A stretch of DNA of 64,000 nucleotides from an uncultured Candidatus Binatia bacterium (GCA_964524885.1 CAZGEJ010000026.1:1302-65301); one strand, 5' to 3'; positions 1 through 58,762 are shown, numbered from the stretch's first letter. Notes: generated by a model from the sequence alone, not told the origin. A program made the numbers and translations.

Positions 1-807
1 CCGCGCCGTCTCCGCGATCCCGGCCGCCGCAACCGCCGCCTCGCCCTCGTCTACCACTCGCGCGCCACCGCCGTGCAGCAGCGCCAGCGCGTTCGCCCGG
101 CGCGCCAACGCCCGCACGAACTCCTCCGGCCGGATCTCCGCCCGAACCCGGCCGCCATGCTTCAACCGTAACGGCGTCCGCAACTCGACGACCACCGCCT
201 CCGGCGCCACCTCCTCCACGGGCGCCGGCACCACCGCCGCATGCACCTCGTCGGTGTCGCCGTCATAGATCAGCGCGCCGCTGGGAACCGTCTCAATGCG
301 CTCCAGCCGCATCGCTGCCGCCGCATCGCCGTCGCCGGCCGGATCGCACGTAGCCTGCCGCAATGCCGCGCCCAAACCGCGTCGCGCCACACCCTGCAGC
401 GCCACCACGAGCACCGGCAATTCCTCGATCGCAGCACCAAGCAGCGTCAGCCGCACCTCGACCGACGTCCCCGTCGGAATCTCCACGGGCGCGCCGTCGC
501 CACGCCAGAAGCGGCTCAGCGGCGCCAGCACCAGCCCACGCGGTGCCTGGTCCCGTACCCCGGGGATTGCTACCGTCGCTGGCGTCTCCATCAGCCGCGG
601 GTAAGCGCAACGCCCGAGCAGGACACACCCTTCGCAGGTTGTGCGCCGCGGGAACACACAGACCAGTCGGTAAAGACTACGTCCGAGCGCGCCGTGCGCC
701 GCCGAGCCCAGAAACGCCGGCAGGCGCCGCGGCGCCAGCAGCCGGAAACGCGCTCGCACCACCAGCGCCGGCGGAAGCGCCGCCGCATTCACGATCGGAT
801 CGTTCAC
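1..807 (-). CDS. Cas6-like RAMP endoribonuclease candidate with a Cys-rich insert (PRRTTCEGCVLLGRCAYP). The N-terminal 269 aa are in the window; the gene continues past the left edge.
   Basis: The minus-strand frame is open over all 807 nt; I checked every triplet for stops. It starts with GTG at 807-805, overlapping the TGA of the upstream csx1-like gene (GTGA). The translation begins VNDPIVNAAALPPALVVRARFRLLAPRRLPAFLGSAAHGALGRSLYRLVCVFPRRTTCEGC..., which resembles the Cas6 N-terminal ferredoxin-like motif. It is the last gene of the csm operon. It is not in the ORF track because it runs off the edge. Confidence 0.45.
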   Translation of the reverse strand, partial: MNDPIVNAAALPPALVVRARFRLLAPRRLPAFLGSAAHGALGRSLYRLVCVFPRRTTCEGCVLLGRCAYPRLMETPATVAIPGVRDQAPRGLVLAPLSRFWRGDGAPVEIPTGTSVEVRLTLLGAAIEELPVLVVALQGVARRGLGAALRQATCDPAGDGDAAAAMRLERIETVPSGALIYDGDTDEVHAAVVPAPVEEVAPEAVVVELRTPLRLKHGGRVRAEIRPEEFVRALARRANALALLHGGGARVVDEGEAAVAAAGIAETAR

Positions 808-2498
808 GCCGTCCCCTCGTCGGTCTTCCCGTCGTCGAGCCACACCAACTCACCGCGGGCCCAAGGATCGGCGCGTTGCTCCTCCGGCGTGCGCCGGTCG
901 ATCAAAAGACAGCGCCGCACCGGTACTCCCATCCGTGCCGCACTCGAGGCCAGCTTCTCAACCACGAACTGCATCGCACTCGTTCCACCGGTGAGGTTCG
1001 CCACCAGTTCACCGGCCGTGGCGAATGACAAGAGCAACTGCCGATCCGTCGCGAATCGCCCGGCGGCATCGAAGTCGCGGTAGGCATCGACGAGTCGCAA
1101 CACCCGATACTCGATGCCGCGCCTCCCCGACCGCTCGAGCGCGGCTTCGAGCCCGGACTCCGCCTCCGCCGAGGTCACCACCAACACCGCGTCCGGTTCG
1201 GCGCAGGCAAGCGCCGTCGCGACCGCGCCGGGCGACATACCCAGCCCGGTCAGCAGCAGCCGTCGGGGAGCGGGTGCGGCCGCGGCAAGCGCCTCCACCT
1301 CGGACCTGACATCGAGACATGTCTCGACATAACGCATGACGTCGATGCCCGCGTCGACGTCTTCCTTGCGCATCCCGGCGTGGGCGAAGCGGTTGCGGGC
1401 ATCGGCGATGTCCTTCCAGGCGCGCCCGACCTTTTTCTCTATGCCGTTGGCGACGCCTTGTTCGACGCGCTGCAGGAGGCTGCCGAAGAACCACTCCGCC
1501 GGACGCCTTGTATGGGAAAAATCGAGCCAGCGATCCGCCGCGCCGCGAGCGAGAACGGCGACGTTCACGAGCCACTCGCGCAGCAAGAGCAGGGCCCGGG
1601 GCGCGTCGCGGCGCTGAGCATACCATCGAACGAGGTCCATCTGGCGTTCCAGTTCCTTCTCGTTCAGCGCCAGCGATGCCTTCCCCGTCTCGCGATCGAC
1701 CGCGAATCCTTGCGCGAGGTCGCGCAGATCGGCAACGGCAATTCGCAGCACATCGGGAACTCCGGCACCGTCGATGCGCTTCGTCTCATTCACCAGGTGG
1801 AAAGCTGCGCGGCCGGCTTCGAGCGGCAGTCCCGCGGTCAGCGCGCGCGACAGTTTTTCGATGTGCGAAGCGGTGTTGCGCATCTCCCGGCCGTCCCAGC
1901 CGAGGCCCCGCAGCCGCTCACGCTCGTCCGCGAGGCGGCGTGCCAGCGCCGAGCCGTCGCCCGCCTCGCGGAACTGCTCCAGCGCTTGGTACCAACGCAG
2001 CAGTTCGAACAAGGAGGTGATGTCGAGGATCGGATGCGAGCCGTCCGCGTCAGCCACCTCGAAGGCGCCGTAGAAGATGCCGTCGACCACGACGGCGCGC
2101 TGGCCGACGAGATAGGCAAGCGACGCCAGATAGACGAACGGCAGATGACGCAGCGCGAACGTGACGTCGAGGGTAACACGGGCCCGCTCCGGCACGGCGG
2201 CGGCTATGCGGGCGAAGATGTCGAGAATCTCTCCGGCGGAGCGGCCGAGCGGCACGTCGAGGGCATCGACCTCGAGACCAGCTTCACGCATCTCGGCGCC
2301 GAACGCGCCGAGCCACTTCTCACGCGCCTCGGCGGTGACGAGCACGAGGCAGCGGGCGCCGGCGAGTCCGCCGAGCCGCGCCAGCGCCACCGGCGCGAAG
2401 CGCGTACACCACGTATCCGTCCCAAAGCGGTAGCTGGTTTCCTCGTATTTGCCGGCACCGATCGAGCAAAGCAGCAACCGTTCTCCCTGCGCCATCAT
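804..2498 (-). CDS. csx1: Csx1/Csm6-family cOA-activated RNase candidate with domain order CARF - HEPN(RNTASH) - HEPN(RNRFAH) - CARF (564 aa).
   Basis: N-terminal CARF-like segment: LLLCSIGAGKYEETSY ... LDVTFALRHLP. Two R-N-x3-H HEPN motifs at residues 207-212 and 368-373. The C-terminal ~150 aa carry CARF hallmarks: LLLTGLGMSPGAVATAL ... NLTGGTSAMQ. Its ATG overlaps the csm5 stop (ATGA). Confidence 0.8.
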   Translation of the reverse strand: MMAQGERLLLCSIGAGKYEETSYRFGTDTWCTRFAPVALARLGGLAGARCLVLVTAEAREKWLGAFGAEMREAGLEVDALDVPLGRSAGEILDIFARIAAAVPERARVTLDVTFALRHLPFVYLASLAYLVGQRAVVVDGIFYGAFEVADADGSHPILDITSLFELLRWYQALEQFREAGDGSALARRLADERERLRGLGWDGREMRNTASHIEKLSRALTAGLPLEAGRAAFHLVNETKRIDGAGVPDVLRIAVADLRDLAQGFAVDRETGKASLALNEKELERQMDLVRWYAQRRDAPRALLLLREWLVNVAVLARGAADRWLDFSHTRRPAEWFFGSLLQRVEQGVANGIEKKVGRAWKDIADARNRFAHAGMRKEDVDAGIDVMRYVETCLDVRSEVEALAAAAPAPRRLLLTGLGMSPGAVATALACAEPDAVLVVTSAEAESGLEAALERSGRRGIEYRVLRLVDAYRDFDAAGRFATDRQLLLSFATAGELVANLTGGTSAMQFVVEKLASSAARMGVPVRRCLLIDRRTPEEQRADPWARGELVWLDDGKTDEGTA

Positions 2499-3817
2499 CC
2501 GTCCGCCTTTTTCAGGAACGGCTTGAGCACAGCGAACTTCGTGCCGATCTCCTTCAGCTTCTTGCGGTCGAAGATGCCGGCGAGCCGCTCGCCGAGAGCC
2601 GCGAGGGCGGCTTCGCGCTTCGCGTGGCGCTCGGCCTCGCCGACGAGTTGATTGAGTTGGCCGAAGTCGCGCGCCTGAAACCGGCGCAGCCGGTTGAGGA
2701 ACACCTCGTCGAGATCGACGACCGGGGCGCTCGGCCGCTCGGCAACCAGCGGTGCGGCGACGGGGGCCGGCCGCGGCGCGTCCGGCATCAGGGTCCGGGC
2801 CGCGGCGGCGTCGACTGGCTCGAGCACGATCCAGCCGAAGAGGTCCGTCGGCTCGCTACGCTCGCTGTGTCCGCTCAGGGCCACCTTACGCGTCTTGCCA
2901 AGGCGCATCCGCAACTGACTGCGTTCCCGTTCGTCGAGGATATCACCCGTCATTCCCGTCCAGCCGATGCCCCAGCCGAGCCGCAGCACGATGGCCTGGG
3001 GTCCGAGCGCGTCCACGGTCTTCAAGAGGCGGTCGCAGCGATCCGTGAGAGCGGCGACGTCGTTGCGGCGAAAGTAGTCGCGGTCGCCACGCAGCAGGTG
3101 TGCGGCGTGCTGTTTCGACCACACCGACAGCTGTGCCAGGCCGGGAAGCTGCTGCGGGAAGGCCAGCCCGGGCAGTGCGCCCGGACGCTCGAGTGTGAGC
3201 CGCAGCGCCGAACGGGCATCGCTCGGCAGCACCTCGACCGCGTTGAGTGTGTTGCGCTTGGTGCCGATGGCTTTGGCGCTGCGGACCTCGACCGATTCCA
3301 CTGCGAAGTGGGCGTCGCCGACCTTGAGTCCACGTAGTATGTCCCCCTTCGGCTCGCGCAGTTCGGGGGCACAGAAGACAGCGCCTTCGATGTCGCGTGC
3401 GCGCAGTTGATTGAGGCTTTCGCGCCAAGGCGTCGCCAACGCTGATCGTCGCCTACCGTGTGGTTCATCCGCCGTCCAAGCGACGAGGAGCAACGTTCGC
3501 AGCGCGCCCTTGAGTGACGACCCGGGCAGCAAAGGTCGGCCGTCGCCGGCGCGGACCGCGAGCCTCAGCTTCGAGGCTTCGATGAATCCGGTACAACTCG
3601 ACGAAGAGACCTGCTGCGGGTCGATCCGGCGACGCCCGACGATCCTTTCGATCGACTCACCACGGGCGATCTCGTCGGCGAATGCGTCACCGACCCGCTC
3701 CGGGGAAACGAACCATGTTCGACCGCTGGCGGAGAAATAGTCGGTCCCCCGCACCCACTCCTCGCCCGAACCGACATGGACCGGCGAGAGAGTCCTGACC
3801 TGGAACCACTGGTTCAT
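2495..3817 (-). CDS. csm5: Csm5 (type III-A RAMP, Cas7 family).
   Basis: The real start is MNQWFQVRTLSPVHVGSGEE, 81 codons inside the track ORF. It carries the RAMP G-loop GSSLKGALRT. ATGA overlap with the csm4 stop. Size (440 aa) and operon position fit Csm5. Confidence 0.85.
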   Translation of the reverse strand: MNQWFQVRTLSPVHVGSGEEWVRGTDYFSASGRTWFVSPERVGDAFADEIARGESIERIVGRRRIDPQQVSSSSCTGFIEASKLRLAVRAGDGRPLLPGSSLKGALRTLLLVAWTADEPHGRRRSALATPWRESLNQLRARDIEGAVFCAPELREPKGDILRGLKVGDAHFAVESVEVRSAKAIGTKRNTLNAVEVLPSDARSALRLTLERPGALPGLAFPQQLPGLAQLSVWSKQHAAHLLRGDRDYFRRNDVAALTDRCDRLLKTVDALGPQAIVLRLGWGIGWTGMTGDILDERERSQLRMRLGKTRKVALSGHSERSEPTDLFGWIVLEPVDAAAARTLMPDAPRPAPVAAPLVAERPSAPVVDLDEVFLNRLRRFQARDFGQLNQLVGEAERHAKREAALAALGERLAGIFDRKKLKEIGTKFAVLKPFLKKADG

Positions 3818-4827
3818 ACAGCCCTCCCCGCGGCACCCGCAGGAACGGCGATCGGCACCGCGATCGCGACTCCCGAGCGGTAGACGTCGTGACCCAGGCC
3901 CAGTTCGGGGCACGCTTCGAGCACCCGCGGCGCGGCGCCGACCCGATCGGCACCGAGGTCGGCCACCAGTGCGCCCTCGGCCAGCATGCGCACATCGCGC
4001 TTGCGCAGCGAGTTCGCGCCGGGACTGGTGATCCAGCCGCCGCGCACGACCGTATCCCAACGCGCCGGCTCGGCGAGCAGGCCGCGCGCGATCTCGTCAT
4101 GCGTCGGCCGGCAGAGGGACAGACAGAGTCGCATGCCGCTGCCGAGCGCGGGGGCGAAGGAGTCAACGGCCTCGACCGCGAAACGGCCGTAGCCGGAGGA
4201 GCGATCGGCGCCGAGGCCCTCTTCTCCGAGCAGCGCCAAGGCAGCCTCGAAGGCGCGGCGGGTGCTTTCCTCGGCGAAGTCGGCGGCGATGCCGAGACGG
4301 ACACCGTCAGCGAAGCGCACGCCGCCGAACTCGTAGAGCAGGCCGGGAATCGGCCCGCCGCCGAGGCGGTTGACGGCGAGGCGGACGCGGCTCTCACGGT
4401 GCCAGAGCCCCTCGCCGTGGACCGCGGCCAGGGCGGTCGGCAGGAGCACGCCGTCGACGACGTCGGCATCGGGCGCGCGGCTGGCGATCAGGTCGCGCAG
4501 CAGAGCGGCCGGCGCGAAGCGGGCGCCCTTCCAGCGCTTGCGGTCGGCACCGGCAGCTGCCTCGGCGAGGCCTGTCGGCAGCGGCAGCGTCGGCAGCCAG
4601 GTGTCGCCGTTCTTCACCACGGGCAGCGCCGACGACACCGCGAACGGCGGTGCCGCGGCGAGCGCGCCGATGTCCGCGCCGGGCTGCACATGCCGCCAGA
4701 CGGAGCACAGCGCCGCGGCGAGCGTATCGGAGCGCGGCAACTCGTCGAGATCGGCGAGGTCGTCGGCGCGTCCGGTGCCGAGGTGCAGCGGTGCGAGGGG
4801 ACGCAGACGATAGAGGATCAAGCTCAT
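3814..4827 (-). CDS. csm4: Csm4 (type III-A RAMP, Cas5 family).
   Basis: The start MSLILYRLRPLAPLHLGTG is a typical Csm4 N-terminus. It lies inside a longer track ORF (3814..5343). ATGA overlaps on both sides. Length is 337 aa. Confidence 0.85.
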   Translation of the reverse strand: MSLILYRLRPLAPLHLGTGRADDLADLDELPRSDTLAAALCSVWRHVQPGADIGALAAAPPFAVSSALPVVKNGDTWLPTLPLPTGLAEAAAGADRKRWKGARFAPAALLRDLIASRAPDADVVDGVLLPTALAAVHGEGLWHRESRVRLAVNRLGGGPIPGLLYEFGGVRFADGVRLGIAADFAEESTRRAFEAALALLGEEGLGADRSSGYGRFAVEAVDSFAPALGSGMRLCLSLCRPTHDEIARGLLAEPARWDTVVRGGWITSPGANSLRKRDVRMLAEGALVADLGADRVGAAPRVLEACPELGLGHDVYRSGVAIAVPIAVPAGAAGRAV

Positions 4828-5612
4828 GCGGCGACGGTGTTGCGGGCGCCGAAGGCGATCGGCTGGGCGAGCCTGCCTTCGTCGGCAGCGGCGGTGGCGA
4901 GCCCGGCGGCATCGCGCCGCACGATGTGCGTCAGGGTGATCTCGACCTGTCCGTAACCGCGCGAGCCCTGACCGCCGATGGCGTCGTCGGCGACGAGTTG
5001 CAGGCCGCGCTGCAACAGCCCGAGCATCTCCTCCTCGTCGTCCTTGTCGTAGACGTTGAGCGCGACCTCGAAGCCGAAGCGGGCTCCGGCCGGGACGCGC
5101 TCGAACTGGCGCGGATTGGCCTTGCTCGTGAGGCGGTCGATCGCGACCTCGGTCTTCACCTCCGCGTAAGGAAGGTCGAGACCCGACCAGTTCGCCATTT
5201 CGGCCGCGCTTGCCGGCGTCATATGGGCGTCGCGGAAGAGAGCACGCGCGGCGCCGGCGTACGGTTTGTCGGGGTCGTAGGGGCGCGACTCGTCGGCGGG
5301 CACGCCGAAGACGAGGCACACCGCACAACCGCCACATTTGCAAGGAGCAAGTGTGATTCCTTGGACCGCGAAACCGTCGCAGCCTAGGCGGGCGCAGTCG
5401 ACCCGTTCGAGTAGGCTGCGCATCTTGCCCTTGAGGGAAGAGCCGGGGATGTACGGCCGGCGGGTCTTGGGATCGCGAACGACGACTTTATCGGCACCGC
5501 CGATGCCGAGGCCGGTGTCGTTGCCGCCGATGTGCATGCCGGTGAGCGCGGTGATCTCGCCGCGCACGAGGATCTTTTTCACCAATCGGGGAGGCTGGAT
5601 CGAAGTGCTCAT
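4824..5612 (-). CDS. csm3: Csm3 (Cas7 backbone subunit).
   Basis: Start MSTSIQPPRLVKKILVRGEITALTGMHIGG. It has the G-rich loop GSSLKGKMRS and the Csm3 zinc-knuckle-like CKCGGCAVCLVFG. There are 5 nt between the csm2 stop and its ATG, with a GAGG Shine-Dalgarno sequence inside csm2. Confidence 0.9.
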   Translation of the reverse strand: MSTSIQPPRLVKKILVRGEITALTGMHIGGNDTGLGIGGADKVVVRDPKTRRPYIPGSSLKGKMRSLLERVDCARLGCDGFAVQGITLAPCKCGGCAVCLVFGVPADESRPYDPDKPYAGAARALFRDAHMTPASAAEMANWSGLDLPYAEVKTEVAIDRLTSKANPRQFERVPAGARFGFEVALNVYDKDDEEEMLGLLQRGLQLVADDAIGGQGSRGYGQVEITLTHIVRRDAAGLATAAADEGRLAQPIAFGARNTVAA

Positions 5613-5617
5613 GGGTC

Positions 5618-6082
5618 TCACCCTCTGCGGTCGGCCTGACCGCTCTTCTCGTAGAACTTGTGGTACGCGACAACCGCTTCGGCGAAGTCGCAGAAGGCCG
5701 CAACCTGCGCCGGTTGCACTTCTTTCGTCAGCGGCCCGAACACAGCCCATAGGTGATTCGCGCTGTCCCGCTTTTTTTCGTTGGAGCGAGCGGTGAGATA
5801 GGCGAGACGCGAGCGCGTCATGCGGATCTGGGCGATCTGCCGCGCCGGGTCGGAGATATCACGGATCTTCGCGACCGATCCGTAGAAGTTGCGCACCTGA
5901 GAGGTCGTAAAGCCCGCTCGCGACAGGGCCTCGGCGAGTTTTTCTGCGCCTTCGTCGATTCCAGCCGGATCCCCGGCGAGCACGGCTTTCCGGATCGTCG
6001 CAACATCGAGCGTCGTCGGCGGCGGCGCGTTAGACCCGCGTCGAGCGTCAGGACTCCGTGTGTCCCTGAAATCGGCACTCAT
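5618..6082 (-). CDS. csm2: Csm2 (Cas11 small subunit).
   Basis: A 154-aa helical small protein sitting between cas10 and csm3. ATGA overlap with the cas10 stop. Position and size are typical of Csm2. Confidence 0.75.
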   Translation of the reverse strand: MSADFRDTRSPDARRGSNAPPPTTLDVATIRKAVLAGDPAGIDEGAEKLAEALSRAGFTTSQVRNFYGSVAKIRDISDPARQIAQIRMTRSRLAYLTARSNEKKRDSANHLWAVFGPLTKEVQPAQVAAFCDFAEAVVAYHKFYEKSGQADRRG

Positions 6083-8652
6083 CCTTCACTCCTTTTCTCT
6101 CGGCTGGCGAGGTCGGCCCATAGAGCAGCCGGCTGCAGCAGCCAGATCAGGTCGCGCGTCGCGCTCCAGCGGCGATCGCCCGACTCCCATTCCCTGCCGG
6201 GCAGGGCATGCATCAGTTTCTCCAGACGCGGTCGCAACTGGGGGTCGCTCATGCGGGCCAGTGCGTAGGCACGGTTCCAGGCCCAACGACCGCGGCGCAC
6301 CCGGTCCTCGACTTCACGTAGCGAGGCAGTGGGGCGTTCGCGGTGATCTCCTTCGAACGAGTCGCGGTAAAGACCAGCGATGCGCGCCAGACGGTGAATC
6401 CAACTGCGCGCGAGCGGCGAAACGACCGGCGCCGCCCGAGCATCCGTCGGAAGGTCGTCGGCGTCCCTGCCGCAGAGCGCCAGGATCTCGCGCGCAAGCG
6501 CCGCGACGACGTCGAGATCCTCCCAGCGCAGAGCATCCTCGAGGAAGGTCAGTCGGTCCTTGCCCTCGTGCTGCTTGGCGCGCTCTTCGAGTTCGCCTGC
6601 CGCCTTCGCCGCCGCCGCGATGGGCTGCCCTGAGCGCACCAGGGCCAGCCCGCCCGAGATGCCCCAGTTCGGGTTACCGGCGGTGAACTGGCTAAAGGCG
6701 CGTCGGATTTCTAGCGCCATCGCCGGCAGCACCGACCAAGCGCCGACGAGAAAGAGGTCGTCGCCGCCGGTGTAGATGATTTGGACTTTTCCGGCCCACG
6801 GCTCCCTTCCTGCCAGTACCGGCACGTGCCCACTGAAGTAGTAGGCCAGCAGCTTCGACAAGTTGGTGATGCGCGAGAAGGTGCGCTCACTCTCCGGCAG
6901 CCCCTCGCGAAAAATGCGGCCGAGCGAGTCGACGTCCATGCGCAGGACGCCGAGCCGTTCGATACCCTCGGACTCGTCGGCCAAGGTCTCGAAGTCCGGC
7001 GCTCGGCCGCTGCCGGCCGAGCCGAGGAAGAGTGCCACCGCACCGGTCGCCGCCGGCTGGAGGTTGGCTGGGGCGAAAACGTGGACCACGTGACGTGATC
7101 CGGCGTCTGCGAGGACGTCGGGGAGAGGCGCGCGTGAGACGAGGAATCCGCGGCGAAGACGCGGCGGTAGCGCGGTGTACCAGTTGCGCTCACGGCCGCC
7201 GAAGTGCTCGCGCAAGTTGTCGAGTTGAGCCCGCCAATCGTCACCGGCGGCAGCAACGAGGCACGTCGCATCGGGCAGCAGCCGGCCGAGTTGGATGAGT
7301 TCGCGACACTCCGGGCACGAAGTCCGCCCGTTCTCGGCGTCGTCGACGACATCGGCGTCGAGCTTACCGCAGGTGCCACAGAGGGTTCCCAGGCCCGGTT
7401 CGCCGAACGGAGCGAAGACCGCTTCGTAGTCCGCCTCGGCGGCACGAGCGAAGCGGCGGCGACGCTGATGCAACAGGTCGGCGGAGGCGGCCTCCCAGCG
7501 AGTCGCCACCCTGCCGGAGACGAAGTCCTCGCCGGACATCGCCGCGGCACCGACGGCAAAACCGAGCCGGCCGCCGTAGTGACGCTGGAGGTCGAGATCG
7601 ATTTCCGACGCGAGCGTGCGCAGCCGTTCCTCGGCGCGGCGCGGCAGCAGCAGCCAGATCTTGCCGCCACCGTTGTAAAGCGCGTTCACCGGCGGCAGGC
7701 CGAGTTCGTCGAGCAGGAACGACGCAATCCCCTCGGCGAGCAGCTGCAGCATGAACGAACGGCCGCGCAGGGCCCGCGCCGCGTTCTTCGAGGCGATGGT
7801 GTAGAGAAAGCGCTGGATCCCGGTCAGATCAGCGACGGCGAGCAGGTACCGCGTGTCGCCGCGGCGACGCACCTCCGCCTCGGCAAACCCGCCCGGTGAC
7901 CCTAGCAACTCGGCCGTCATGGCGGCGGCAATCGCGGCTGCGGCACGGCTGTGCTCGAAGAGCGAAACGTCGCGCGGCAAGGCGTTGGTAGCCGCCGGCA
8001 CACACCAAGCGTAGCGCTCGTACACAGCCAGAAAGGTCCGCAGGAAAACGCCGACGTCGCCGCGAGGAATCTTGCTCGTGTCCTGGCAGAGGGGATCGAA
8101 TAAGGAGCGGTACTCGCGCGCCGCCGCAGCAGCCGAGGGCTCGGCCGCGGAGATGGGAAACAGCGTCGGGCCGAAATCGAGCGCGGCGAACGGGACCGCG
8201 TAAGCGCCGGCATCGCCGCCGCTTACGCGGCCGAGAAGTGGCTCGAGGCGGCACGTCTGGACGAAATGCCAGCCTGCCTTGGCAGCGACCTCGTCGGGGT
8301 GACCGCGATCCATACCCGCGGAAAGACCGTCGGCCTCTGCGACGACGGCGTCGCCTACGTAAGTAGGCTTGTGGTGCCGCGCCGCCCAGCCGGCGACGCT
8401 GTCATCGTCGCCGCGACCGACGGCAGTGAGCCAGTCCGCGTGGTCGGCGATGAACTGCCATGTGTAGGCCGCGTGATGGTACTGCGCCCGCCCGTCCACC
8501 GTGCGAGTGAATAGGTGCTGGTTGGCGAGGCTCTTGTAGCGCTCGGGATCGGCCTCGGCGCGCTGGGCGAGTTTGCCGACGTCGTGGAGAAGGGCCGCCA
8601 AGGCGACCTGTTGCACCAACTCGCGCTGCTCTGCGGTCAACATCCGCTCCAC
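6079..8652 (-). CDS. cas10: Cas10/Csm1 with an intact HD nuclease motif and GGDD cyclase motif.
   Basis: N-terminal HD motif: ALLHDVGK. Treble-clef zinc-finger region: CGTCGKLDADVVDDAENGRTSCPECREL. Palm-domain GGDD: IIYTGGDDLFLVGAW. 857 aa. Shine-Dalgarno GGGAGGTGGAGCGG immediately 5' of the ATG at 8652. Confidence 0.92.
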   Translation of the reverse strand: MERMLTAEQRELVQQVALAALLHDVGKLAQRAEADPERYKSLANQHLFTRTVDGRAQYHHAAYTWQFIADHADWLTAVGRGDDDSVAGWAARHHKPTYVGDAVVAEADGLSAGMDRGHPDEVAAKAGWHFVQTCRLEPLLGRVSGGDAGAYAVPFAALDFGPTLFPISAAEPSAAAAAREYRSLFDPLCQDTSKIPRGDVGVFLRTFLAVYERYAWCVPAATNALPRDVSLFEHSRAAAAIAAAMTAELLGSPGGFAEAEVRRRGDTRYLLAVADLTGIQRFLYTIASKNAARALRGRSFMLQLLAEGIASFLLDELGLPPVNALYNGGGKIWLLLPRRAEERLRTLASEIDLDLQRHYGGRLGFAVGAAAMSGEDFVSGRVATRWEAASADLLHQRRRRFARAAEADYEAVFAPFGEPGLGTLCGTCGKLDADVVDDAENGRTSCPECRELIQLGRLLPDATCLVAAAGDDWRAQLDNLREHFGGRERNWYTALPPRLRRGFLVSRAPLPDVLADAGSRHVVHVFAPANLQPAATGAVALFLGSAGSGRAPDFETLADESEGIERLGVLRMDVDSLGRIFREGLPESERTFSRITNLSKLLAYYFSGHVPVLAGREPWAGKVQIIYTGGDDLFLVGAWSVLPAMALEIRRAFSQFTAGNPNWGISGGLALVRSGQPIAAAAKAAGELEERAKQHEGKDRLTFLEDALRWEDLDVVAALAREILALCGRDADDLPTDARAAPVVSPLARSWIHRLARIAGLYRDSFEGDHRERPTASLREVEDRVRRGRWAWNRAYALARMSDPQLRPRLEKLMHALPGREWESGDRRWSATRDLIWLLQPAALWADLASREKRSEG

Positions 8653-9122: not shown

Positions 9123-11708
9123 ATGAACACCTCGACGATCCGCAAACACCCGCCCATCCTCGATCCAACACCGGTCAGTCCCGACCAGATCGCCGCTCTC
9201 GCCGACTCGCTCGGCCTGCCGATCGTCAACCGCGTCGCTCTGCCCGAGCGCAGCGCACACCACGCTCCGGTGCCGGCCACACTCGCCGCTCCGTTGCGCG
9301 ATACTCTGTCGAATCGCTTCCCGGCCGGGCTTTATGCCCACCAGTCGGCGGCGATCGAGGCTTCGATTGCCGGCAATGACCTGTGTGTCGCCACCTCGAC
9401 CGCCTCGGGCAAAAGCCTCATCTTCATGAGCGCTGCCGCCCATCGGCTGTGCGCCGACCCGAAGGCTCGCGTCCTCGCGCTCTATCCGGCCCGTGCCCTC
9501 ATGCAGGACCAGATCGAGAAATGGCGGACCTTCCTTGCGCCGCTCGGACTCTCCGTCGGGCTCATCGACGGCGGCGTCGACACGCGGCAGCGCGCCGAGA
9601 TCGTCGAGCACAACCACGTCGTCTTGATGACCCCGGACGTTGCTCACGCCTGGGCGCTGTCGCGCGCCGGGGAGCGGCCCGTGCGCCGGTTCCTCGAGCG
9701 GCTCGACCTCGTCGTGCTCGACGAGGCGCACGTCTACGAGGGCGTGTTCGGCACCAACATGTCGTACTTCATGCGCCGCCTGGACATCGTCGCCGGCGGC
9801 TTCGACCTGATCGCCGCCACCGCGACCATTGGCAGGCCCGGCGCGTTCATCGAGAAACTCACGGGCAGGCAGGTGCAGACCTTCGCCGCCGACAGCGACG
9901 CCTCGCCGGCGCCGGCCCGAACCCTGCTTCTCGCCGACGGCCGGGGCAAGAAGCGCTTCCAGCGCATCGCCGACCTGCTCAAGGGCATCGCCCAGCAGCG
10001 CCTCGGTCGCTTCATCGCCTTCGGCGATTCGCGCCGCCTGGTGGAGCGCATGGTGGCCGCCGCCCGCCGCCCGGCCGATGCCGACACGGGCGCGGACCCT
10101 GATGACGCGGTCGACAACGAGGCTGATCTCTCGTTGGACAGCGACGCCGGCGAGATTCTGCCTTACCGTGCCGGCTACGAGACCGAGGACCGCAACGACA
10201 TCCAGAAGGCGCTGGCGCAAGGCCAACTGCTCGGCGTCGTGTCGACCAGCGCGCTCGAGCTCGGACTCGACATCGGCGACATCGACGTCGTCGTCCTGCT
10301 CAATCCGCCGACGAGCACCAAGGCCCTGTGGCAGAGGCTCGGCCGCACCGGGCGTGCCCGTCCGGGGGTGTGTATCGTCATCGACGACCGCGGCACGCTG
10401 GTGGCGCGTCCGCACGGGCTCGAGAGCTACCTGGCCCGCGAGGTCGAGCCGAACTGGCTCTACCTCGACAATCGCTACATTCAGTACGGCAACGCGTTGT
10501 GCGCGGCACAGGAGGCGCGCGTCTGCGGCATCGAGGCGGGCGCAGCGAAGGCGCTGGCGACGTTGCCGGAGAAGTTCCGGGCGATGGTGGAGAACGAGCT
10601 TCACCCGACGGAGGTGGTGCCGGACGATCTCTATCCGTTGAAGCAGCGGGCACAGGCCGGGCCGCACTACGAGTTTCCCCTGCGCAGCAGCATGGAGATG
10701 AACTTCAAGGTGCAGGGTCCGTTCGGCCGCTCCCTGGGCGAGCTGACCTACGGCCAGGTGCTGCGCGAGGCGTATCCGGGAGCGGTCTACTATTACATGG
10801 CCAAACCGTTCCGGGTGATTGCCTTCCGCTACCGGCAGCGCGAGATCCAGACGCGGCGCGACAAGCACCTGACGACACACCCGCTGGCGCAGACGATGGT
10901 ATTCCCGCGCTTCGCCGGCGGCACGCTGGCGCTGCGGCGCAGTGCGGGGGCGTTCGTCGCCGAGGCCGAGGTGCAGGTGAGCGAGCGGGTGATCGGCTTC
11001 AAGGAGATCCGCGGCAGGAACGAGGAGGAGCACCTCTACGGGCCGGAGTCCCCGTGGTCCCAGCGCGACCTGACGCGGTTCTTCCCGACGACGGGGGTGT
11101 GCTGGTTCTCGCCGCGCAAGGCCTTTCTCGCCGAGCGGGTGGGGGACGCGATTCTCGAGGCGTATTGCTCGACCTTCGGAGTGCAGCCCCGGGATCTCGG
11201 TGTCGGATTGTTCCATGCCAACGTGTCGCCGCTCGGCGGGGAGAAGGTACAGGGGCTGTGCGTCTACGACGCGACGCACGGCAGTCTGCGGCTGACGCAG
11301 CGGCTGGCAGAGAACTTTTCCGAGGTGATCGAGGCGGCACGGGCAACGGCTGCGGCGGAGGGAGAGCGCGAGCTCGCGCTCGAGCTCGAGGCCTTCGCCG
11401 CGGAGGTCGCCGGCCTCGCGCCGGCGCCGGTGGAGCACGTAAAGCTGCCTCTCGGCGAGGCCGTTGCCGACGAGTGGGTGACGGTGGTGGCGGCCGGAGG
11501 GCCGGCGATGTTGGTGACCGACGCCCGGACGGCGGAGGTGGTGGTCAAGGATCACCGCTATACGCCACGCGGACTTCTCTACGAGCTCGAGCCGGAGCAG
11601 CCGGGCGTGCGGTGGCTGGTGGCGGCCCGCGACGTGCAGCCGATCTTCGGCCGCAGCCCGCTGGCCAAGCTCAACCTGGAGACGGGAGAGATCCGGGAGG
11701 TGGAGTGA
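9123..11708 (+). CDS. SF2 DEAD/DEAH-box helicase (861 aa) with a ~300-aa C-terminal domain of unknown function (MrfA/DUF1998-like architecture, but no CxxC cluster).
   Basis: Helicase motif Q (YAHQSAAI), motif I (TSTASGKSLIF), motif II (VLDEAHVYEGVFG), motif III (ATATIG) and motif VI (QRLGRTGRAR). Shine-Dalgarno AAAGGAGA 5 nt before the ATG. Divergent from cas10. Confidence 0.85.
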   Translation: MNTSTIRKHPPILDPTPVSPDQIAALADSLGLPIVNRVALPERSAHHAPVPATLAAPLRDTLSNRFPAGLYAHQSAAIEASIAGNDLCVATSTASGKSLIFMSAAAHRLCADPKARVLALYPARALMQDQIEKWRTFLAPLGLSVGLIDGGVDTRQRAEIVEHNHVVLMTPDVAHAWALSRAGERPVRRFLERLDLVVLDEAHVYEGVFGTNMSYFMRRLDIVAGGFDLIAATATIGRPGAFIEKLTGRQVQTFAADSDASPAPARTLLLADGRGKKRFQRIADLLKGIAQQRLGRFIAFGDSRRLVERMVAAARRPADADTGADPDDAVDNEADLSLDSDAGEILPYRAGYETEDRNDIQKALAQGQLLGVVSTSALELGLDIGDIDVVVLLNPPTSTKALWQRLGRTGRARPGVCIVIDDRGTLVARPHGLESYLAREVEPNWLYLDNRYIQYGNALCAAQEARVCGIEAGAAKALATLPEKFRAMVENELHPTEVVPDDLYPLKQRAQAGPHYEFPLRSSMEMNFKVQGPFGRSLGELTYGQVLREAYPGAVYYYMAKPFRVIAFRYRQREIQTRRDKHLTTHPLAQTMVFPRFAGGTLALRRSAGAFVAEAEVQVSERVIGFKEIRGRNEEEHLYGPESPWSQRDLTRFFPTTGVCWFSPRKAFLAERVGDAILEAYCSTFGVQPRDLGVGLFHANVSPLGGEKVQGLCVYDATHGSLRLTQRLAENFSEVIEAARATAAAEGERELALELEAFAAEVAGLAPAPVEHVKLPLGEAVADEWVTVVAAGGPAMLVTDARTAEVVVKDHRYTPRGLLYELEPEQPGVRWLVAARDVQPIFGRSPLAKLNLETGEIREVE

Positions 11709-11709
11709 G

Positions 11710-12249
11710 ATGGAGTTCCTTCATCCGACCTGTCCGCACGCAGGACGTAGATCCACCGACTCTCCAGAAACGCATCAGGAAAGGATAGAGGACATGCATC
11801 GACGTGGATCCACCTCAACATCGGAACCCCTCCAACGGGATGACATTCCACGCCAACTCGAGCCCGGATCGCACATCATGGTGAAGAGGACGCTGCAGTA
11901 CTCGCATCATGGAGTCTACATCGGCGACGGTCGGGTCATTCACTTCTCAGGCGAACCCTTCGACATGGCCAATGCGTCGATCTGCGAAACGACCATTGAG
12001 GATTTCCTGAACGGCGGCGTTCCGCGGGTGGTTCTGCACGGCGACGAGCAACTGGCCGCCGATGTCGTCGTCCAGAACGCGAGCAAGCGACTCGGCGAAA
12101 CCGGCTACCGTCTGACGGCGAACAATTGCGAACACTTCGCGACCGAATGCTGCACAGGAAAGCCGTCTTGCAAGCAGTTCCAGGCCTTCATCTGGGGTGG
12201 TCTGATTGGTCTGGGGTTGCACAACAACCTCAACGGAGAAAGGTCCTAG
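11710..12249 (+). CDS. LRAT / H-box-NC domain protein (NlpC/P60 superfamily acyltransferase/phospholipase-like).
   Basis: The segment LEPGSHIMVKRTLQYSHHGVYIGDGRVIHFSG aligns with the PLAAT/LRAT His box. The C-terminal NCEHFATECC matches the NCEHF catalytic-Cys motif. It starts 1 nt after the helicase stop. Confidence 0.7.
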   Translation: MEFLHPTCPHAGRRSTDSPETHQERIEDMHRRGSTSTSEPLQRDDIPRQLEPGSHIMVKRTLQYSHHGVYIGDGRVIHFSGEPFDMANASICETTIEDFLNGGVPRVVLHGDEQLAADVVVQNASKRLGETGYRLTANNCEHFATECCTGKPSCKQFQAFIWGGLIGLGLHNNLNGERS

Positions 12250-58600: not shown

Positions 58601-58762
58601 ATAAAGGCCTCCGGTACCATAGAAGCCCGTCGTCGCGACTTCCTTGAATGTCGCGCCGCAAGACTCGAAGCCCGCCGCCGGCGGCGCGGGCAAAAGGAGA
58701 GCAAAGGCCCACAGCAGAAGGGTTAGACTTACCTGGCGTGGAGCCAGGGTGGCGAGATTCAT
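55661..58762 (-). CDS. Large secreted protein: N-terminal RCC1-like beta-propeller repeats, then ~7 Myxococcus-type cysteine-rich repeats, then a C-terminal domain.
   Basis: Signal peptide MNLATLAPRQVSLTLLLWAFALLLPA. Repeated AAGxxHTCGI...CWGSN..GQ (RCC1 blades). Repeated CGNGxxxxGExCDDGNxxDGDGCxxNC units (myxo disulfide repeat). Confidence 0.75.
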   Translation of the reverse strand: MNLATLAPRQVSLTLLLWAFALLLPAPPAAGFESCGATFKEVATTGFYGTGGLYADGHLVLWGYSSSLPDGIYTTVAAGGMHVCAIAAGSGTVTCWGSNASPSNGTTYVGQAMPPTGSFTHLAAGWAHTCGIRADDSAECWGLNSSGQATPPTQAFGLLAAGQGHTCGIDKTDGSVACWGSNSEGQAAPPTGVYTQLAAGSAHTCGIRADGSIECWGSNSQGQSTPPAGVFTRIGAGSEHNCAISEDGSVVCWGRNNSGQATPPAGTFTQISGGFFDTTCGLKTDGTISCWGSNMFGATRPPCCGNGVLSIDEQCEDGNAVETDACLSTCRFNACGDGIIREGVEACDDGNAVNGDGCDVNCTASGCGNGAVSPGEECDDGNLIETDACRSNCVASTCGDGIIRTGVENCEDGNLLDGDGCDSNCRVTACGNGVQTGTESCDDGNLSDGDGCDGNCSPTGCGNGILTSGEICDDGNDLDGDGCDHTCVETGCPNGIVSSGEVCDDGNYQDGDGCDRNCTLTGCGNGIHSPGEDCDQGDLEGGAIVGSYRGIIDTGFDPVYPHQFNTTCIFGAPVPGSEPWDVFGTPVATGPILCVRETVNGVSGPNVCKSVDPDTLVENGLFDTTLSGGDDGDTQDTCANPPTCTKWSLIGRAEATGLLQDQVMTNLPPESTVVYTLDGMESGRSFCVNGCPKRIPGCPWNGGVWQHSNYRLAVNAFVDQYTDAGSNVTVSSRTGFLNPITTVQVPITVDVTFSQVTQAGRTMVVVQSNHSNSLGGFSLGQSGFQPSFLDITTTAQFTGPVTVCTRYPDTDNDGIVDGSQISEADLKFLHGGDGAFVDVTTSQDLDDNVVCGQVEHLSPFVATLPRSLCSDTARQDCVATKGSLSIARDPTDSTRNSMKFKLAGPAANLGNPLTHTSYALCVYDDQGLALDFPIPPALTEGPLSAAWTSSGAGKFKFKDKVGSSGGITAVSLKSATKTLVSAKAKGSNVAAPARMPLGQGVTMQFVSDADLCFTHAFDPGLVSKNSDTKFSAR

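What the first reader, a model, noticed from the sequence alone, without database searches (positions are those of the whole stretch)
804..2498. Csx1/Csm6-like effector looks like a single-chain pseudo-dimer: CARF - HEPN - HEPN - CARF, with two R-N-x3-H motifs.
Seen: an N-terminal CARF-like region, two separate HEPN-type motifs (EMRNTASHIEK at residues 207-212 and ADARNRFAHAG at 368-373), and a C-terminal ~150-aa region carrying the CARF signature NLTGGTSAMQ. The chance of a second R-N-x3-H in 564 aa is roughly 3% by composition. Known: Csm6/Csx1 are CARF-HEPN proteins that act as homodimers, with two CARF domains binding one cOA and two HEPN domains forming one composite RNase site. Inference: this protein may have internalised the dimer, with the second half circularly permuted. 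Alternatively the C-terminal CARF may be a fused ring-nuclease (Crn1-like) off-switch. Either would be an unusual architecture.
Basis: partly seen in the sequence, partly recalled or inferred. Interest (0 to 1): 0.6.

Follow-up and report, generated by a model that had tools for sequence, protein, structure and literature searches.

The report
Csx1 RNase with extra C-terminal CARF
This gene encodes an ordinary signal-activated CRISPR RNase (Csx1) with one nuclease domain, not two, plus an extra signal-binding domain at its tail that probably acts as a built-in off-switch; the domain layout is already catalogued.

Summary
The ORF is real. It lies on the minus strand at 804-2498 (564 aa), inside a type III-A operon: cas10-csm2-csm3-csm4-csm5-csx1-cas6.

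The "second HEPN" does not hold.
- RNTASH (207-212) occurs only in the query and its two closest relatives, and in none of 34 other homologues.
- It sits in the least conserved part of the protein, the helical "HTH" domain of Csx1.
- That region shows no HEPN similarity by hhalign, Pfam or PDB profile search.
- Residues 8-380 align collinearly with a standard 376-position single CARF-HEPN profile.

R368/N369/H373 are (near-)invariant and align with the proven catalytic R401/N402/H406 of Marinitoga Csx1-Crn2.

The C-terminal 150 aa is a genuine CARF domain (pLDDT 92; every top fold match is a CARF domain). The whole protein matches the PADLOC model "CARF2--CARF_HEPN_CARF" end to end (E = 8e-114). 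The domain also exists as stand-alone proteins of about 145 aa, encoded in other type III loci beside Can2-, Csm6-, Cad1- and Csx1-type effectors.

Most likely this is a self-limiting Csx1, analogous to Csx1-Crn2. Ring-nuclease activity of the tail domain is inferred, not shown. The domain is not Crn1-family and lacks the motif-II lysine.

The parts
804..2498 (-). csx1 gene, 564 aa plus stop. CARF2-clade Csx1 with architecture CARF - helical/HTH - HEPN - CARF.
   Evidence: ORF. TIGR02221 cas_TM1812 E=8.8e-22, above cutoff. PADLOC CARF2--CARF_HEPN_CARF E=8e-114, query 9-553 on profile 3-516/518. AF2 pLDDT 92. Best fold match is Marinitoga Csx1-Crn2 8y6z, E=1e-19.
1959..2498 (-). N-terminal sensor CARF domain (residues 1-180) with the DxTxxxRH motif D111-V-T113-F-A-L-R117-H118 (nt 2145-2168).
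   Evidence: D111, T113, R117 and H118 are invariant in 37 sequences. R117 aligns with R132 and T113 with T128 of Marinitoga Csx1-Crn2. R132 contacts cA4 and R132A abolishes RNase activity (PMC11317161).
1674..1958 (-). Helical middle ('HTH') domain, residues 181-275. It contains the non-conserved RNTASH string (residues 207-212, nt 1863-1880).
   Evidence: Least conserved domain: 26% identity, 5 of 95 columns at 90% or more. hhalign against the HEPN domain gives probability 0.5%. No HEPN hit in Pfam or PDB for residues 150-300. The motif is absent in 34 of 36 homologues.
1278..1673 (-). The single HEPN RNase domain, residues 276-407. Catalytic R368-N369-x3-H373 at nt 1380-1397.
   Evidence: R368 and H373 invariant, N369 at 90% or more. 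They align with R401/N402/H406 of Marinitoga Csx1-Crn2, whose alanine mutants lose RNase activity (PMC11317161). Weak Pfam HEPN_Apea hit at 340-389.
807..1277 (-). Additional C-terminal CARF domain, residues 408-564 (ordered to ~556). Conserved motifs: L-G-x3-G (415-424), T442-S443, N501-x-T-G-G-T-S/T-x2-Q510 (nt 969-998), D534-R535-R536 (nt 891-899), Q541, P545, G549-E550.
   Evidence: AF2 pLDDT 91.9, with alternating strands and helices. Every one of the top 38 Foldseek PDB matches is a CARF domain or CARF-family protein: Cam1 E=8.5e-7, TtCsm6 TMq 0.69, EiCsm6, Can2, Cad1, Can1. The profile hits the second CARF of Can1 and the CARF of Can2. The same residues are conserved in the 19 stand-alone homologues aligned.
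1..807 (-). cas6, N-terminal 269 codons. The gene runs off the left end of the window. Its GTG start overlaps the csx1 stop (GTGA).
   Evidence: Translation. The full 335-aa gene on the identical contig L078 carries PF10040 CRISPR_Cas6. Overlap sequence.
2495..3817 (-). csm5. Its stop overlaps the csx1 start (ATGA).
   Evidence: TIGR01899 Csm5 E=1.9e-15. Overlap sequence. Called as 440 aa in L078.
3814..4839 (-). csm4
   Evidence: TIGR01903 cas5_csm4 E=1.3e-38.
4824..5615 (-). csm3
   Evidence: TIGR02582 Csm3 E=2e-61.
5618..6082 (-). csm2
   Evidence: TIGR01870 Csm2 E=5.2e-14.
6079..8652 (-). cas10/csm1, with an HD motif (residue 23) and the GGDD cyclase motif (residue 629). The locus should therefore make cyclic oligoadenylate.
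   Evidence: TIGR02578 Cas10/Csm1 E=6.8e-156. Motifs read directly from the sequence.

Best explanation
The gene encodes a Csx1-family, cyclic-oligoadenylate (cOA)-activated HEPN ribonuclease. It is the ancillary effector of the type III-A system it sits in (cas10-csm2-csm3-csm4-csm5-csx1-cas6, with start and stop codons overlapping on both sides of csx1).

Shown by homology:
- The protein has an N-terminal sensor CARF domain, a poorly conserved helical 'HTH' domain, one HEPN domain (R368/N369/H373) and an extra C-terminal CARF domain.

Inferred mechanism:
- Cas10 (GGDD intact) makes cOA, probably cA4, on target-RNA binding.
- Two chains dimerise. Their N-CARFs clamp one cOA (T113/R117), which brings the two HEPN R-x4-H motifs together into one composite RNase site.
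- The C-terminal CARF is a separately mobile module that also occurs as a ~145-aa stand-alone gene in other type III loci. It pairs with the C-CARF of another chain to form a second cOA pocket.
- That pocket removes the signal, most likely by cleaving it (ring-nuclease activity), less likely by merely sequestering it. The enzyme would then be self-limiting, as Crn2 makes Marinitoga Csx1-Crn2.
- By the same analogy the tail domain probably also drives assembly of dimers into tetramers or higher oligomers.

The RNTASH string at 207-212 is a lineage-specific coincidence in the linker domain.
For: Identity and architecture:
- full-length match to 'CARF2--CARF_HEPN_CARF', E=8e-114.
- AF2 pLDDT 92; best fold match is Csx1-Crn2 8y6z, E=1e-19; SisCsx1 6qzt E=4e-9.

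One HEPN only:
- motif conservation.
- hhalign of the middle region against HEPN, probability 0.5%.
- no HEPN hit for residues 150-300.
- the middle region is the least conserved.

Catalytic and sensor residues map onto experimentally tested residues of Marinitoga Csx1-Crn2 (PMC11317161).

Operon membership and an active cyclase.

The C-terminal domain is a CARF domain.

The C-terminal domain is a functional, mobile module:
- It is as conserved as the sensor CARF.
- Stand-alone homologues of 142-166 aa carry the same invariant polar residues.
- They are encoded in type III loci next to unrelated effectors. L049 and L064 have a Can2-like protein followed by the stand-alone gene, with overlapping stop and start in L049. 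L050 has a Csm6-like protein, the stand-alone gene and Cad1. L043 has a CARF-RelE protein.
- L048 carries a plain CARF2 Csx1 and the stand-alone CARF as separate genes in one locus, a split version of the fusion seen here.

Off-switch analogy:
- Sibling PADLOC architectures in the same CARF2 clade carry Csx3/Crn3, Csx16 or Csx20 at this position.
- Crn2, Crn3, Csx16 and Csx20 are all confirmed ring nucleases (PMC12409355, PMC7293037).
- Such fusions are regarded as indicators of regulatory function (PMC8284326).

Structural parallel:
- The closest structural neighbour by TM-score, the TtCsm6 CARF (TMq 0.69), is itself a cA4 ring nuclease (PMC10897365).
- T442/S443 after strand 2 and the R535-R536...E/Q loop after strand 5 parallel its T81 and its R172/R173/E179 mobile loop. 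This rests on motif position only and is an inference.
Against: - No activity data exist for this subfamily. A full-text search found no paper on a Csx1 with the CARF-HEPN-CARF architecture; the only hit for that string was the CARF-HEPN-CARF-HEPN protein Csm6-2.
- The C-CARF lacks the motif-II basic residue, having T-G-G-T-[T/S] where Crn1 and TtCsm6 have T-x-G-x-K. TtCsm6 K137A loses cA4 binding and cleavage (PMC10897365).
- The motif-I Ser (S422) is Ala in several homologues.
- Its nearest sequence relatives are the CARFs of Can1 and Can2. I recall these as not being reported to cleave cA4, but I did not check this.
- At least one CARF-like accessory protein, Csx15, showed no ring-nuclease activity in vitro (PMC12409355).
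- Abditibacteriota stand-alone homologues lie outside CRISPR loci, next to rtcB. That is not what a dedicated cOA off-switch predicts.
- Quaternary structure could not be modelled: only monomer predictions were available and no coordinates were returned.
Confidence: 0.6

Rival explanations
1. The C-terminal CARF binds cOA but does not cleave it. It would act as a buffer that sets an activation threshold, or as a second allosteric or oligomerisation site. cOA-dependent pairing of C-CARFs between Csx1 dimers would then give tetramers or filaments that stabilise the HEPN site.
For: - The motif-II Lys/Arg is absent and the motif-I Ser is not invariant.
- The nearest sequence relatives are the sensor CARFs of Can1 and Can2.
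- The best Foldseek E-value is to the Cam1 sensor CARF.
- In Marinitoga Csx1-Crn2 the C-terminal domain is needed for tetramerisation and HEPN integrity (PMC11317161).
- Csx15, another CARF-like accessory protein, lacks ring-nuclease activity and serves as a cA4 sensor in Cash (PMC12409355, PMC13462974).
Against: - The characterised domains found at this position in sibling Csx1 fusions are ring nucleases: Crn2, Crn3, Csx16 and Csx20 (PMC12409355). The 'Unk_f1' partner is uncharacterised.
- A stand-alone 145-aa CARF with no effector domain has little to do as a pure sensor.
- Invariant D534/R536/Q541 and the Thr/Ser cluster exceed what simple binding usually requires, although this is weak evidence.
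Confidence: 0.28
2. The chain is an internalised dimer, CARF-HEPN-HEPN-CARF, in which R207/H212 and R368/H373 form one composite RNase site and the two CARFs bind one cOA within a monomer.
For: - Two exact R-N-x3-H strings and two CARF domains are present in one chain.
- The strict motif is expected only about 0.01 times by composition.
- True single-chain pseudo-dimers exist elsewhere: Csm6-2 (CARF-HEPN-CARF-HEPN; PMC11229360, PMC13187428) and Can1.
Against: - The first motif is absent in 34 of 36 homologues that keep the same architecture.
- Its region is the least conserved in the family.
- There is no HEPN signal by hhalign (probability 0.5%), Pfam or PDB profile search.
- Residues 8-380 align collinearly with a single CARF-HEPN profile of normal length.
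- They also align with the CARF-HTH-HEPN of a solved Csx1.
- N-CARF and C-CARF are only remotely similar (hhalign P=0.0024), so they are not a duplication.
Confidence: 0.02
3. The C-CARF pairs intramolecularly with the N-CARF, as the two CARFs of Can1 do, giving an asymmetric sensor pocket in each chain, while HEPN still dimerises between chains.
For: - The best sequence match of the C-CARF is to the second CARF of Can1 (6sce residues 303-387).
- Motif II (N-L-T-G-G-T-T-A-M) resembles that of Can1 CARF2 (NLNSGTTAM).
Against: - The stand-alone homologues must form their pocket by homodimerising.
- The N-CARF keeps every residue of a symmetric Csx1 homodimer pocket.
- In the solved Csx1-Crn2 the C-terminal domain lies at the opposite end of the molecule from the CARF (PMC11317161).
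- Interdomain geometry of the AF2 model could not be inspected.
Confidence: 0.05
4. The C-CARF family senses something other than cOA, for example RNA or oligoadenylate ends carrying a 2',3'-cyclic phosphate. That would couple RNase activity to its own products or to RNA repair.
For: - In 12 Abditibacteriota loci the stand-alone homologue lies within a few kilobases of rtcB, the RNA 2',3'-cyclic-phosphate ligase, and outside any CRISPR locus.
- From memory, the rtcBA regulator RtcR also uses a CARF domain.
Against: - The other stand-alone copies and all the fusions are in type III loci beside cOA-dependent effectors.
- The fold neighbours are all cOA-binding CARFs.
- The rtcB link is synteny in one phylum only.
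Confidence: 0.05

Closest known systems
PADLOC-DB models 'CARF2--CARF_HEPN_CARF' (PDLC01839/01840/01838). From memory, the names follow the CARF classification of Makarova et al. 2020, which I could not read.
   Same: Full-length, collinear match (E=8e-114, query 9-553 on profile 3-516/518). Same four-part layout and the same C-terminal CARF.
   Different: Nothing architectural. The window protein is a divergent member: its closest relatives are 82% and 73% identical, all others 45% or less, and no species-representative genome holds a close copy.
Marinitoga sp. Csx1-Crn2 fusion (PDB 8Y6Z/8Y7G; PMC11317161, PMC7293037)
   Same: Best structural match. Same order of CARF, HTH and HEPN. R117/T113 and R368/N369/H373 align with its functional R132/T128 and R401/N402/H406. 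An extra cOA-related domain follows the HEPN domain, and overall length is similar (563 vs 564 aa).
   Different: The tail domain is a CARF (Rossmann-like) fold, not the DUF1874/AcrIII-1 fold of Crn2. Its ring-nuclease activity and a tetramer are shown for Marinitoga only.
Crn1 ring nucleases (Sso2081, Sis0811; CARF7 clade)
   Same: A CARF fold that would bind cOA as a dimer. Small stand-alone relatives exist in type III loci.
   Different: No CARF7/Crn1 profile hit and no Crn1 structure among the top 50 fold matches. The motif-II Lys is replaced by Thr/Ser.
TtCsm6 CARF domain (PDB 5FSH/8JBB), a self-limiting cA4 sensor and ring nuclease
   Same: Highest TM-score neighbour of the C-domain (TMq 0.69, ~22% identity). 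Thr/Ser after strand 2 and an Arg-Arg loop after strand 5 sit in comparable places.
   Different: TtCsm6 uses its only CARF for both sensing and cleavage and needs K137 (PMC10897365). Here sensing and the presumed cleavage are split between two CARFs, and the Lys is missing.
Csm6-2 (Actinomyces procaprae; CARF-HEPN-CARF-HEPN) and Can1 (CARF-nuclease-like-CARF-nuclease)
   Same: Two CARF domains in one chain.
   Different: Csm6-2 has two HEPN domains in tandem CARF-HEPN units that form an intramolecular dimer (PMC11229360, PMC13187428). The window protein has one HEPN, and its two CARFs are unrelated subfamilies.

Membership tests
Csx1 (TIGR02221 / TM1812, CARF2 clade) | Family HMM match above the curated cutoff | tested here: met
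   TIGR02221 scores 78.1 bits against a cutoff of 76.25. PADLOC Csx1/Csm6 E=3e-64 and CARF2--CARF_HEPN E=2.4e-61.
Csx1 (TIGR02221 / TM1812, CARF2 clade) | N-terminal CARF with the DxT(H)GxRH motif II that contacts cA4 | tested here: met
   D111-V-T113-F-A-L-R117-H118. D111, T113, R117 and H118 are invariant. R117 aligns with R132 of 8Y7G.
Csx1 (TIGR02221 / TM1812, CARF2 clade) | C-terminal HEPN domain with a conserved R-x4-6-H motif | tested here: met
   R368-N-R-F-A-H373. R and H are invariant in 37 sequences and align with R401/H406 of Marinitoga Csx1-Crn2.
Csx1 (TIGR02221 / TM1812, CARF2 clade) | [quoted passage not shown] | tested here: met
   The cas10-csm2-5-csx1-cas6 operon. GGDD at Cas10 residue 629.
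Csx1 (TIGR02221 / TM1812, CARF2 clade) | cOA-stimulated ssRNA cleavage | not testable with these tools
   Needs biochemistry.
CARF2 CARF_HEPN_CARF sub-architecture | End-to-end match to the subfamily profile, including the C-terminal CARF | tested here: met
   PDLC01839: query 9-553 on profile 3-516/518, E=8e-114. The tail alone gives E=1.1e-33 on profile 380-516.
CARF domain (C-terminal 408-556) | Rossmann-like alternating strand-helix fold matching solved CARF domains | tested here: met
   pLDDT 91.9, alternating strands and helices. 38 CARF-domain or CARF-family matches at E<1e-3.
CARF domain (C-terminal 408-556) | [DN]-x-[ST]-x3-[RK] signature after strand 4 (as recalled from Makarova 2014) | tested here: inconclusive
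   N501-L-T503-G-G-T-S507: the D/N and S/T positions are met, but the final basic residue is Ser (Thr in the family).
Crn1-type CARF ring nuclease | Membership of the Crn1/CARF7 sequence family | tested here: not met
   No CARF7 or Crn1 model among the PADLOC hits for the tail or for the stand-alone homologues. No Crn1 structure in the top 50 fold matches.
Crn1-type CARF ring nuclease | Motif-I Ser/Thr after strand 1 and motif-II Lys after strand 4 (S11/K168 in Sso2081, from memory; T59-S60/K137 in TtCsm6) | tested here: not met
   Lys position is S507 in the query and Thr in >90% of the family. S422 is present in the query but is Ala in several homologues.
Crn1-type CARF ring nuclease | Cleavage of cA4 to A2>P | not testable with these tools
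   Needs HPLC/MS assays.
Single-chain HEPN pseudo-dimer (Csm6-2-like) | Two HEPN domains in one polypeptide | tested here: not met
   Only residues 276-407 are HEPN. For residues 181-275: hhalign probability 0.5% against HEPN, no HEPN family in Pfam for 26 members, and the motif is absent in 34 of 36 homologues.

The most novel reading that the evidence does not exclude
The C-terminal CARF and its ~145-aa stand-alone homologues form a so-far unnamed family of CARF-type cOA regulators, probably ring nucleases. The family signature is L-G-x3-G, V-T-S, N-x-T-G-G-T-T-x2-Q and D-R-R-x4-Q-x3-P. These proteins would work without the canonical motif-II lysine, using the invariant Arg pair after strand 5 instead. 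The family serves several effector types (Csx1, Csm6, Can2, Cad1, CARF-RelE). In Abditibacteriota it has been recruited next to the RNA ligase RtcB, outside CRISPR loci.
Probability: 0.4. Interest if true: 0.5.

Novelty: new member of a known kind. Interest (0 to 1): 0.3.

Why it matters
For the scan itself it matters little. This is a normal type III-A ancillary RNase of a catalogued subfamily, and the eye-catching 'second HEPN motif' is a coincidence.

The useful residue is the C-terminal domain.
- No paper in the searchable library characterises a Csx1 with this CARF-HEPN-CARF architecture.
- Ring-nuclease surveys that rely on known-family HMMs and a 250-aa length cutoff (PMC12409355) would miss both the fusion and its stand-alone relatives.
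- If the domain degrades cOA, it adds another ring-nuclease family with a variant active site. It would also raise the fraction of type III loci known to carry an off-switch.
- If it only binds cOA, it would be an example of a host-encoded buffer or an oligomerisation switch.
- Either outcome can be tested directly with one purified protein.

Tried and rejected
- The CARF classification paper (Makarova et al. 2020, PMC7498327) is not held. The link to that catalogue therefore rests on my recollection that PADLOC model names follow it, and on a review's summary (PMC8284326).
- Pfam gave nothing for the whole protein except a sub-threshold HEPN_Apea hit at the true HEPN motif. It gave nothing for the tail.
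- I looked for viral copies of the tail domain, as possible anti-CRISPR ring nucleases. None was found in IMG/VR by pattern scan plus tblastn, and there was no significant BFVD fold match.
- I looked for a CRISPR array. None is present in the 64-kb window or in the 300 bp beyond cas6 on contig L078.
- No Rfam or tRNA hits in the window.
- I asked whether intermediate-length proteins carrying the domain (200-460 aa) are fusions to other effectors. All 20 inspected contain the Csx1 HEPN motif upstream and appear to be N-terminally truncated or deleted copies of the same architecture.
- I considered the tail being Csx15, Csx16, Csx20 or Crn4. No profile hits to the Csx16 or Csx20 tails, and Crn4 has an unrelated fold (PMC12830947).
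- Interdomain geometry and oligomer state could not be examined, because the structure tool returns no coordinates and makes no multimers.


Full report
WHAT IS THERE

The coordinates 804-2498 delimit a real ORF, but it is on the minus strand (564 aa, ATG start). It is the sixth gene of a seven-gene type III-A operon, all on the minus strand.
- cas10/csm1 at 6079-8652 (TIGR02578, E=7e-156).
- csm2 at 5618-6082.
- csm3 at 4824-5615.
- csm4 at 3814-4839.
- csm5 at 2495-3817.
- This gene.
- A cas6 that runs off the left edge of the window (1-807). The complete 335-aa gene, with Pfam CRISPR_Cas6, is visible on an identical metagenomic contig, L078.

The csm5 stop overlaps this gene's start (ATGA). 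This gene's stop overlaps the cas6 start (GTGA). Cas10 keeps both the HD motif and the GGDD cyclase motif, so the locus should signal with cyclic oligoadenylate (cOA). No CRISPR array lies within the window.

CHECKING THE OBSERVATION

Asn and His are rare in this protein (1.2% and 1.1%). An exact R-N-x3-H is therefore expected only 0.008 times, and it appeared in 0.98% of 20,000 shuffles. The general HEPN definition R-x4-6-H is expected about twice by chance.

IS THERE A SECOND HEPN? NO.

1. I collected 36 homologues at 34-82% identity, nearly all 550-600 aa with the same layout, and aligned them. R368 and H373 are invariant and N369 is nearly so. The RNTASH string is found only in the query and its two closest relatives (82% and 73% identical). 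The other 34 have unrelated residues there, for example LSRLQTPTEQ.
2. The segment carrying it (residues 181-275) is the least conserved part of the family. It shows 26% identity to the query among distant homologues and only 5 of 95 columns at 90% or more. The N-CARF shows 49%, the HEPN domain 36% and the C-terminal domain 42%.
3. Profile-profile comparison of 181-275 against 276-407 gives 0.5% probability.
4. A profile of residues 150-300 finds nothing in the PDB except the collinear stretch of Marinitoga Csx1-Crn2, at E=0.36. No HEPN family is hit in Pfam for any of the 26 members scanned.
5. Residues 8-380 align in one piece with positions 3-354 of a 376-position profile of ordinary single CARF-HEPN Csx1 proteins (PDLC01824, E=2e-61). 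This leaves no room for an extra domain.
6. The AlphaFold model (pLDDT 92, pTM 0.83) is most similar to Marinitoga Csx1-Crn2 (8Y6Z, E=1e-19) and to S. islandicus Csx1 (6QZT). In the Marinitoga structure the domains are CARF 1-181, HTH 182-305, HEPN 306-444 and Crn2 445-563 (PMC11317161). By the sequence alignment, R368/N369/H373 correspond to R401/N402/H406, whose alanine mutants lose RNase activity. R117/T113 correspond to the cA4-contacting R132/T128.

The first motif therefore lies in the helical 'HTH' domain that every Csx1 has. The protein has one HEPN domain and must dimerise to build the composite RNase site. Genuine single-chain pseudo-dimers do exist: Csm6-2 is CARF-HEPN-CARF-HEPN (PMC11229360, PMC13187428). 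This protein is not one of them.

THE C-TERMINAL DOMAIN

Modelled on its own with 36 homologues (pLDDT 91.9), residues 408-556 form an alternating strand-helix sandwich. Every one of the top 38 Foldseek matches in the PDB is a CARF domain or CARF-family protein.
- Cam1 (E=8.5e-7).
- T. thermophilus Csm6 (TMq 0.69).
- E. italicus and S. thermophilus Csm6.
- Can2, Cad1 and Can1.

No Crn1 structure appears among the top 50. By sequence, the profile weakly hits the second CARF of Can1 and the CARF of Can2. PADLOC hits beyond its own family go to Can1, CARF1, CARF3 and CARF4 models, not to CARF7/Crn1, Csx16 or Csx20. It is only remotely related to the protein's own N-CARF (hhalign P=0.0024, with motif II in register). 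It is therefore not an internal duplication.

IS THE ARCHITECTURE KNOWN? YES.

The whole protein matches the PADLOC model named 'CARF2--CARF_HEPN_CARF' end to end (E=8e-114; two further models of the same name also hit). Sibling models in the same clade are named CARF_HEPN_CSX3, _CSX16, _CSX20 and _Unk_f1.

A profile of the tail domain, searched against 1.8 billion cluster representatives, finds 555 clusters at E<=1e-3 and 327 at E<=1e-30. Most of the listed hits are full-length 550-630-aa fusions. In species-representative genomes the fusion occurs in the following groups.
- Binatia, Chloroflexota and Obscuribacterales.
- Planctomycetota and Riflebacteria.
- Many Firmicutes, including Anoxybacillus.
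- One Heimdallarchaeota MAG.

The window's own organism is not in that collection; the best match is 44% identical. I found no paper in the searchable library that characterises this sub-architecture.

WHAT THE TAIL DOMAIN PROBABLY DOES

Two new pieces of context came from following the domain elsewhere.

First, about 25 genomic loci and at least 10 database proteins encode the domain alone, as a 142-166-aa protein. These keep exactly the residues that are invariant in the fusions.
- L415, G420 and G424.
- P435 and T442-S443.
- N501-x-T-G-G-T-T-x-x-Q510.
- D534-R535-R536.
- Q541, P545 and G549-E550.

Second, several of these stand-alone genes sit in type III loci directly beside unrelated cOA-dependent effectors.
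- L049 and L064: a Can2-like CARF-PD-D/ExK nuclease, then the stand-alone CARF (overlapping stop and start in L049), then cmr genes and cas10.
- L050: csm3-5, a Csm6-like CARF1-HEPN protein, the stand-alone CARF, then a Cad1-type CARF-deaminase.
- L043: the stand-alone CARF at the head of a cmr operon that also encodes a CARF-RelE protein.
- L048: the stand-alone CARF, a DUF1848 protein, a plain CARF2 Csx1, then cas10. This is a split version of the fusion seen in the window.

A small, effector-less cOA-binding module that accompanies many different effectors and is sometimes fused to the C-terminus of Csx1 matches the distribution of ring nucleases. Crn2, Crn3, Csx16 and Csx20 are all confirmed enzymes, and all are found fused to Csx1 at this position (PMC7293037, PMC12409355, PMC8284326). 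The tail is also as well conserved as the sensor CARF. This echoes the remark that Crn2 is the best conserved part of Csx1-Crn2 (PMC11317161).

My best reading is therefore a self-limiting RNase.
- Shown by homology: the N-CARF pair senses cOA and switches on the HEPN pair.
- Inferred: the C-CARFs pair between chains, form a second pocket, and destroy the signal.
- By analogy with Crn2, the tail probably also mediates assembly of dimers into higher oligomers.

WHY THIS REMAINS AN INFERENCE

- The domain departs from the catalytic signature of CARF ring nucleases. Where Crn1 and TtCsm6 have T-x-G-x-K (K137A abolishes cA4 binding and cleavage; PMC10897365), this family has T-G-G-T-T (Ser in the query).
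- The motif-I Ser is not invariant.
- The invariant Arg pair after strand 5, followed by E-E-Q-R, might replace the Lys. It would resemble the R172/R173/E179 mobile loop of TtCsm6. This rests on motif position only.
- One CARF-like accessory family, Csx15, lacks ring-nuclease activity in vitro and acts as a sensor (PMC12409355, PMC13462974).
- In Abditibacteriota the stand-alone gene is not in a CRISPR locus. It lies near rtcB in 12 loci.

A non-catalytic role (buffer, second allosteric site or oligomerisation switch) therefore stays a serious rival. I give it about 0.28, and about 0.6 to the self-limiting model.

VERDICT

- The gene is a new, divergent member of a catalogued Csx1 subfamily (CARF-HTH-HEPN-CARF).
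- The pseudo-dimer idea is refuted at the family level.
- The fallback idea of a fused off-switch is plausible, but the domain is not Crn1-like and its activity is untested.
- Interest is modest (0.3). The part worth a bench experiment is the tail domain and its stand-alone relatives, which could be an unrecognised ring-nuclease or cOA-buffer family.

Noticed in passing
window 1-807 (minus strand); L078 6835-7842: A cas6 gene follows csx1 with a GTGA start/stop overlap and runs off the left end of the window, so the ORF lister does not show it. The full 335-aa product on an identical metagenomic contig carries Pfam CRISPR_Cas6 and AF_1859_N. No CRISPR array lies in the 64-kb window or in the 300 bp beyond cas6.
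   Followed up: partly
L053, L056, L057, L059, L060, L062, L063, L065, L068, L071, L072, L074 (e.g. L062 8255-9715 rtcB, 9995-10429 CARF): In Abditibacteriota, ~144-aa stand-alone homologues of the C-terminal CARF lie outside any recognisable CRISPR locus. They sit 0.3-4.5 kb from an rtcB RNA-ligase gene, divergently transcribed in L062. This synteny holds in 12 loci and recalls the CARF-containing regulator RtcR. In L056, L065 and L068 the rtcB match is split into pieces, possibly by an intein or a frameshift.
   Followed up: partly
L049 176-1767; L064 6541-8224; L050 2429-6655; L048 5860-8717; L043 9878-15311: Stand-alone copies of the tail domain are encoded next to Can2-like, Csm6-like, Cad1-like, plain Csx1 and CARF-RelE effectors in type III loci. 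No model in PADLOC, Pfam or NCBIfam names these small proteins. Their best hit is the tail of the CARF_HEPN_CARF profile.
   Followed up: partly
P0170 (261 aa, from the representative library): A stand-alone-type CARF (residues 24-176) continues into what looks like the N-terminus of a RAMP protein (…GFKGVLRYWWRAL…). This is either a real CARF-Cmr fusion or a read-through of the L043-like gene pair.
   Followed up: no
L030 8096-11126: A full CARF-HEPN-CARF gene is followed 26 bp later by a second Csx1-like gene, so two Csx1 paralogues sit in tandem next to cas10-csm3-csm4.
   Followed up: no
window 9123-11708 (+) and 11710-12249 (+): An 861-aa DEAD/DEAH-box helicase and a 179-aa LRAT/NlpC-P60-like protein are transcribed divergently from cas10 and are almost abutting each other. 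The helicase has weak similarity to DECH-type and Cas3-like helicases. The pair may be another defence-island gene pair.
   Followed up: no
window 55661-58909 (minus), repeats at 57152-57523: Four tandem 93-nt repeats (66-71% identical) encode Cys-rich DUF4215 ('Myxococcus cysteine-rich repeat') units inside a 1082-aa protein that also has RCC1 repeats. Together with 67.5% GC this hints at a Myxococcota-like host.
   Followed up: no
window 1-64000: There are no tRNA genes and no Rfam matches at gathering threshold in the 64 kb. The exact Csx1 protein is found only on three short Logan contigs from the runs ERR3494953, ERR3494954 and ERR3494959.
   Followed up: no
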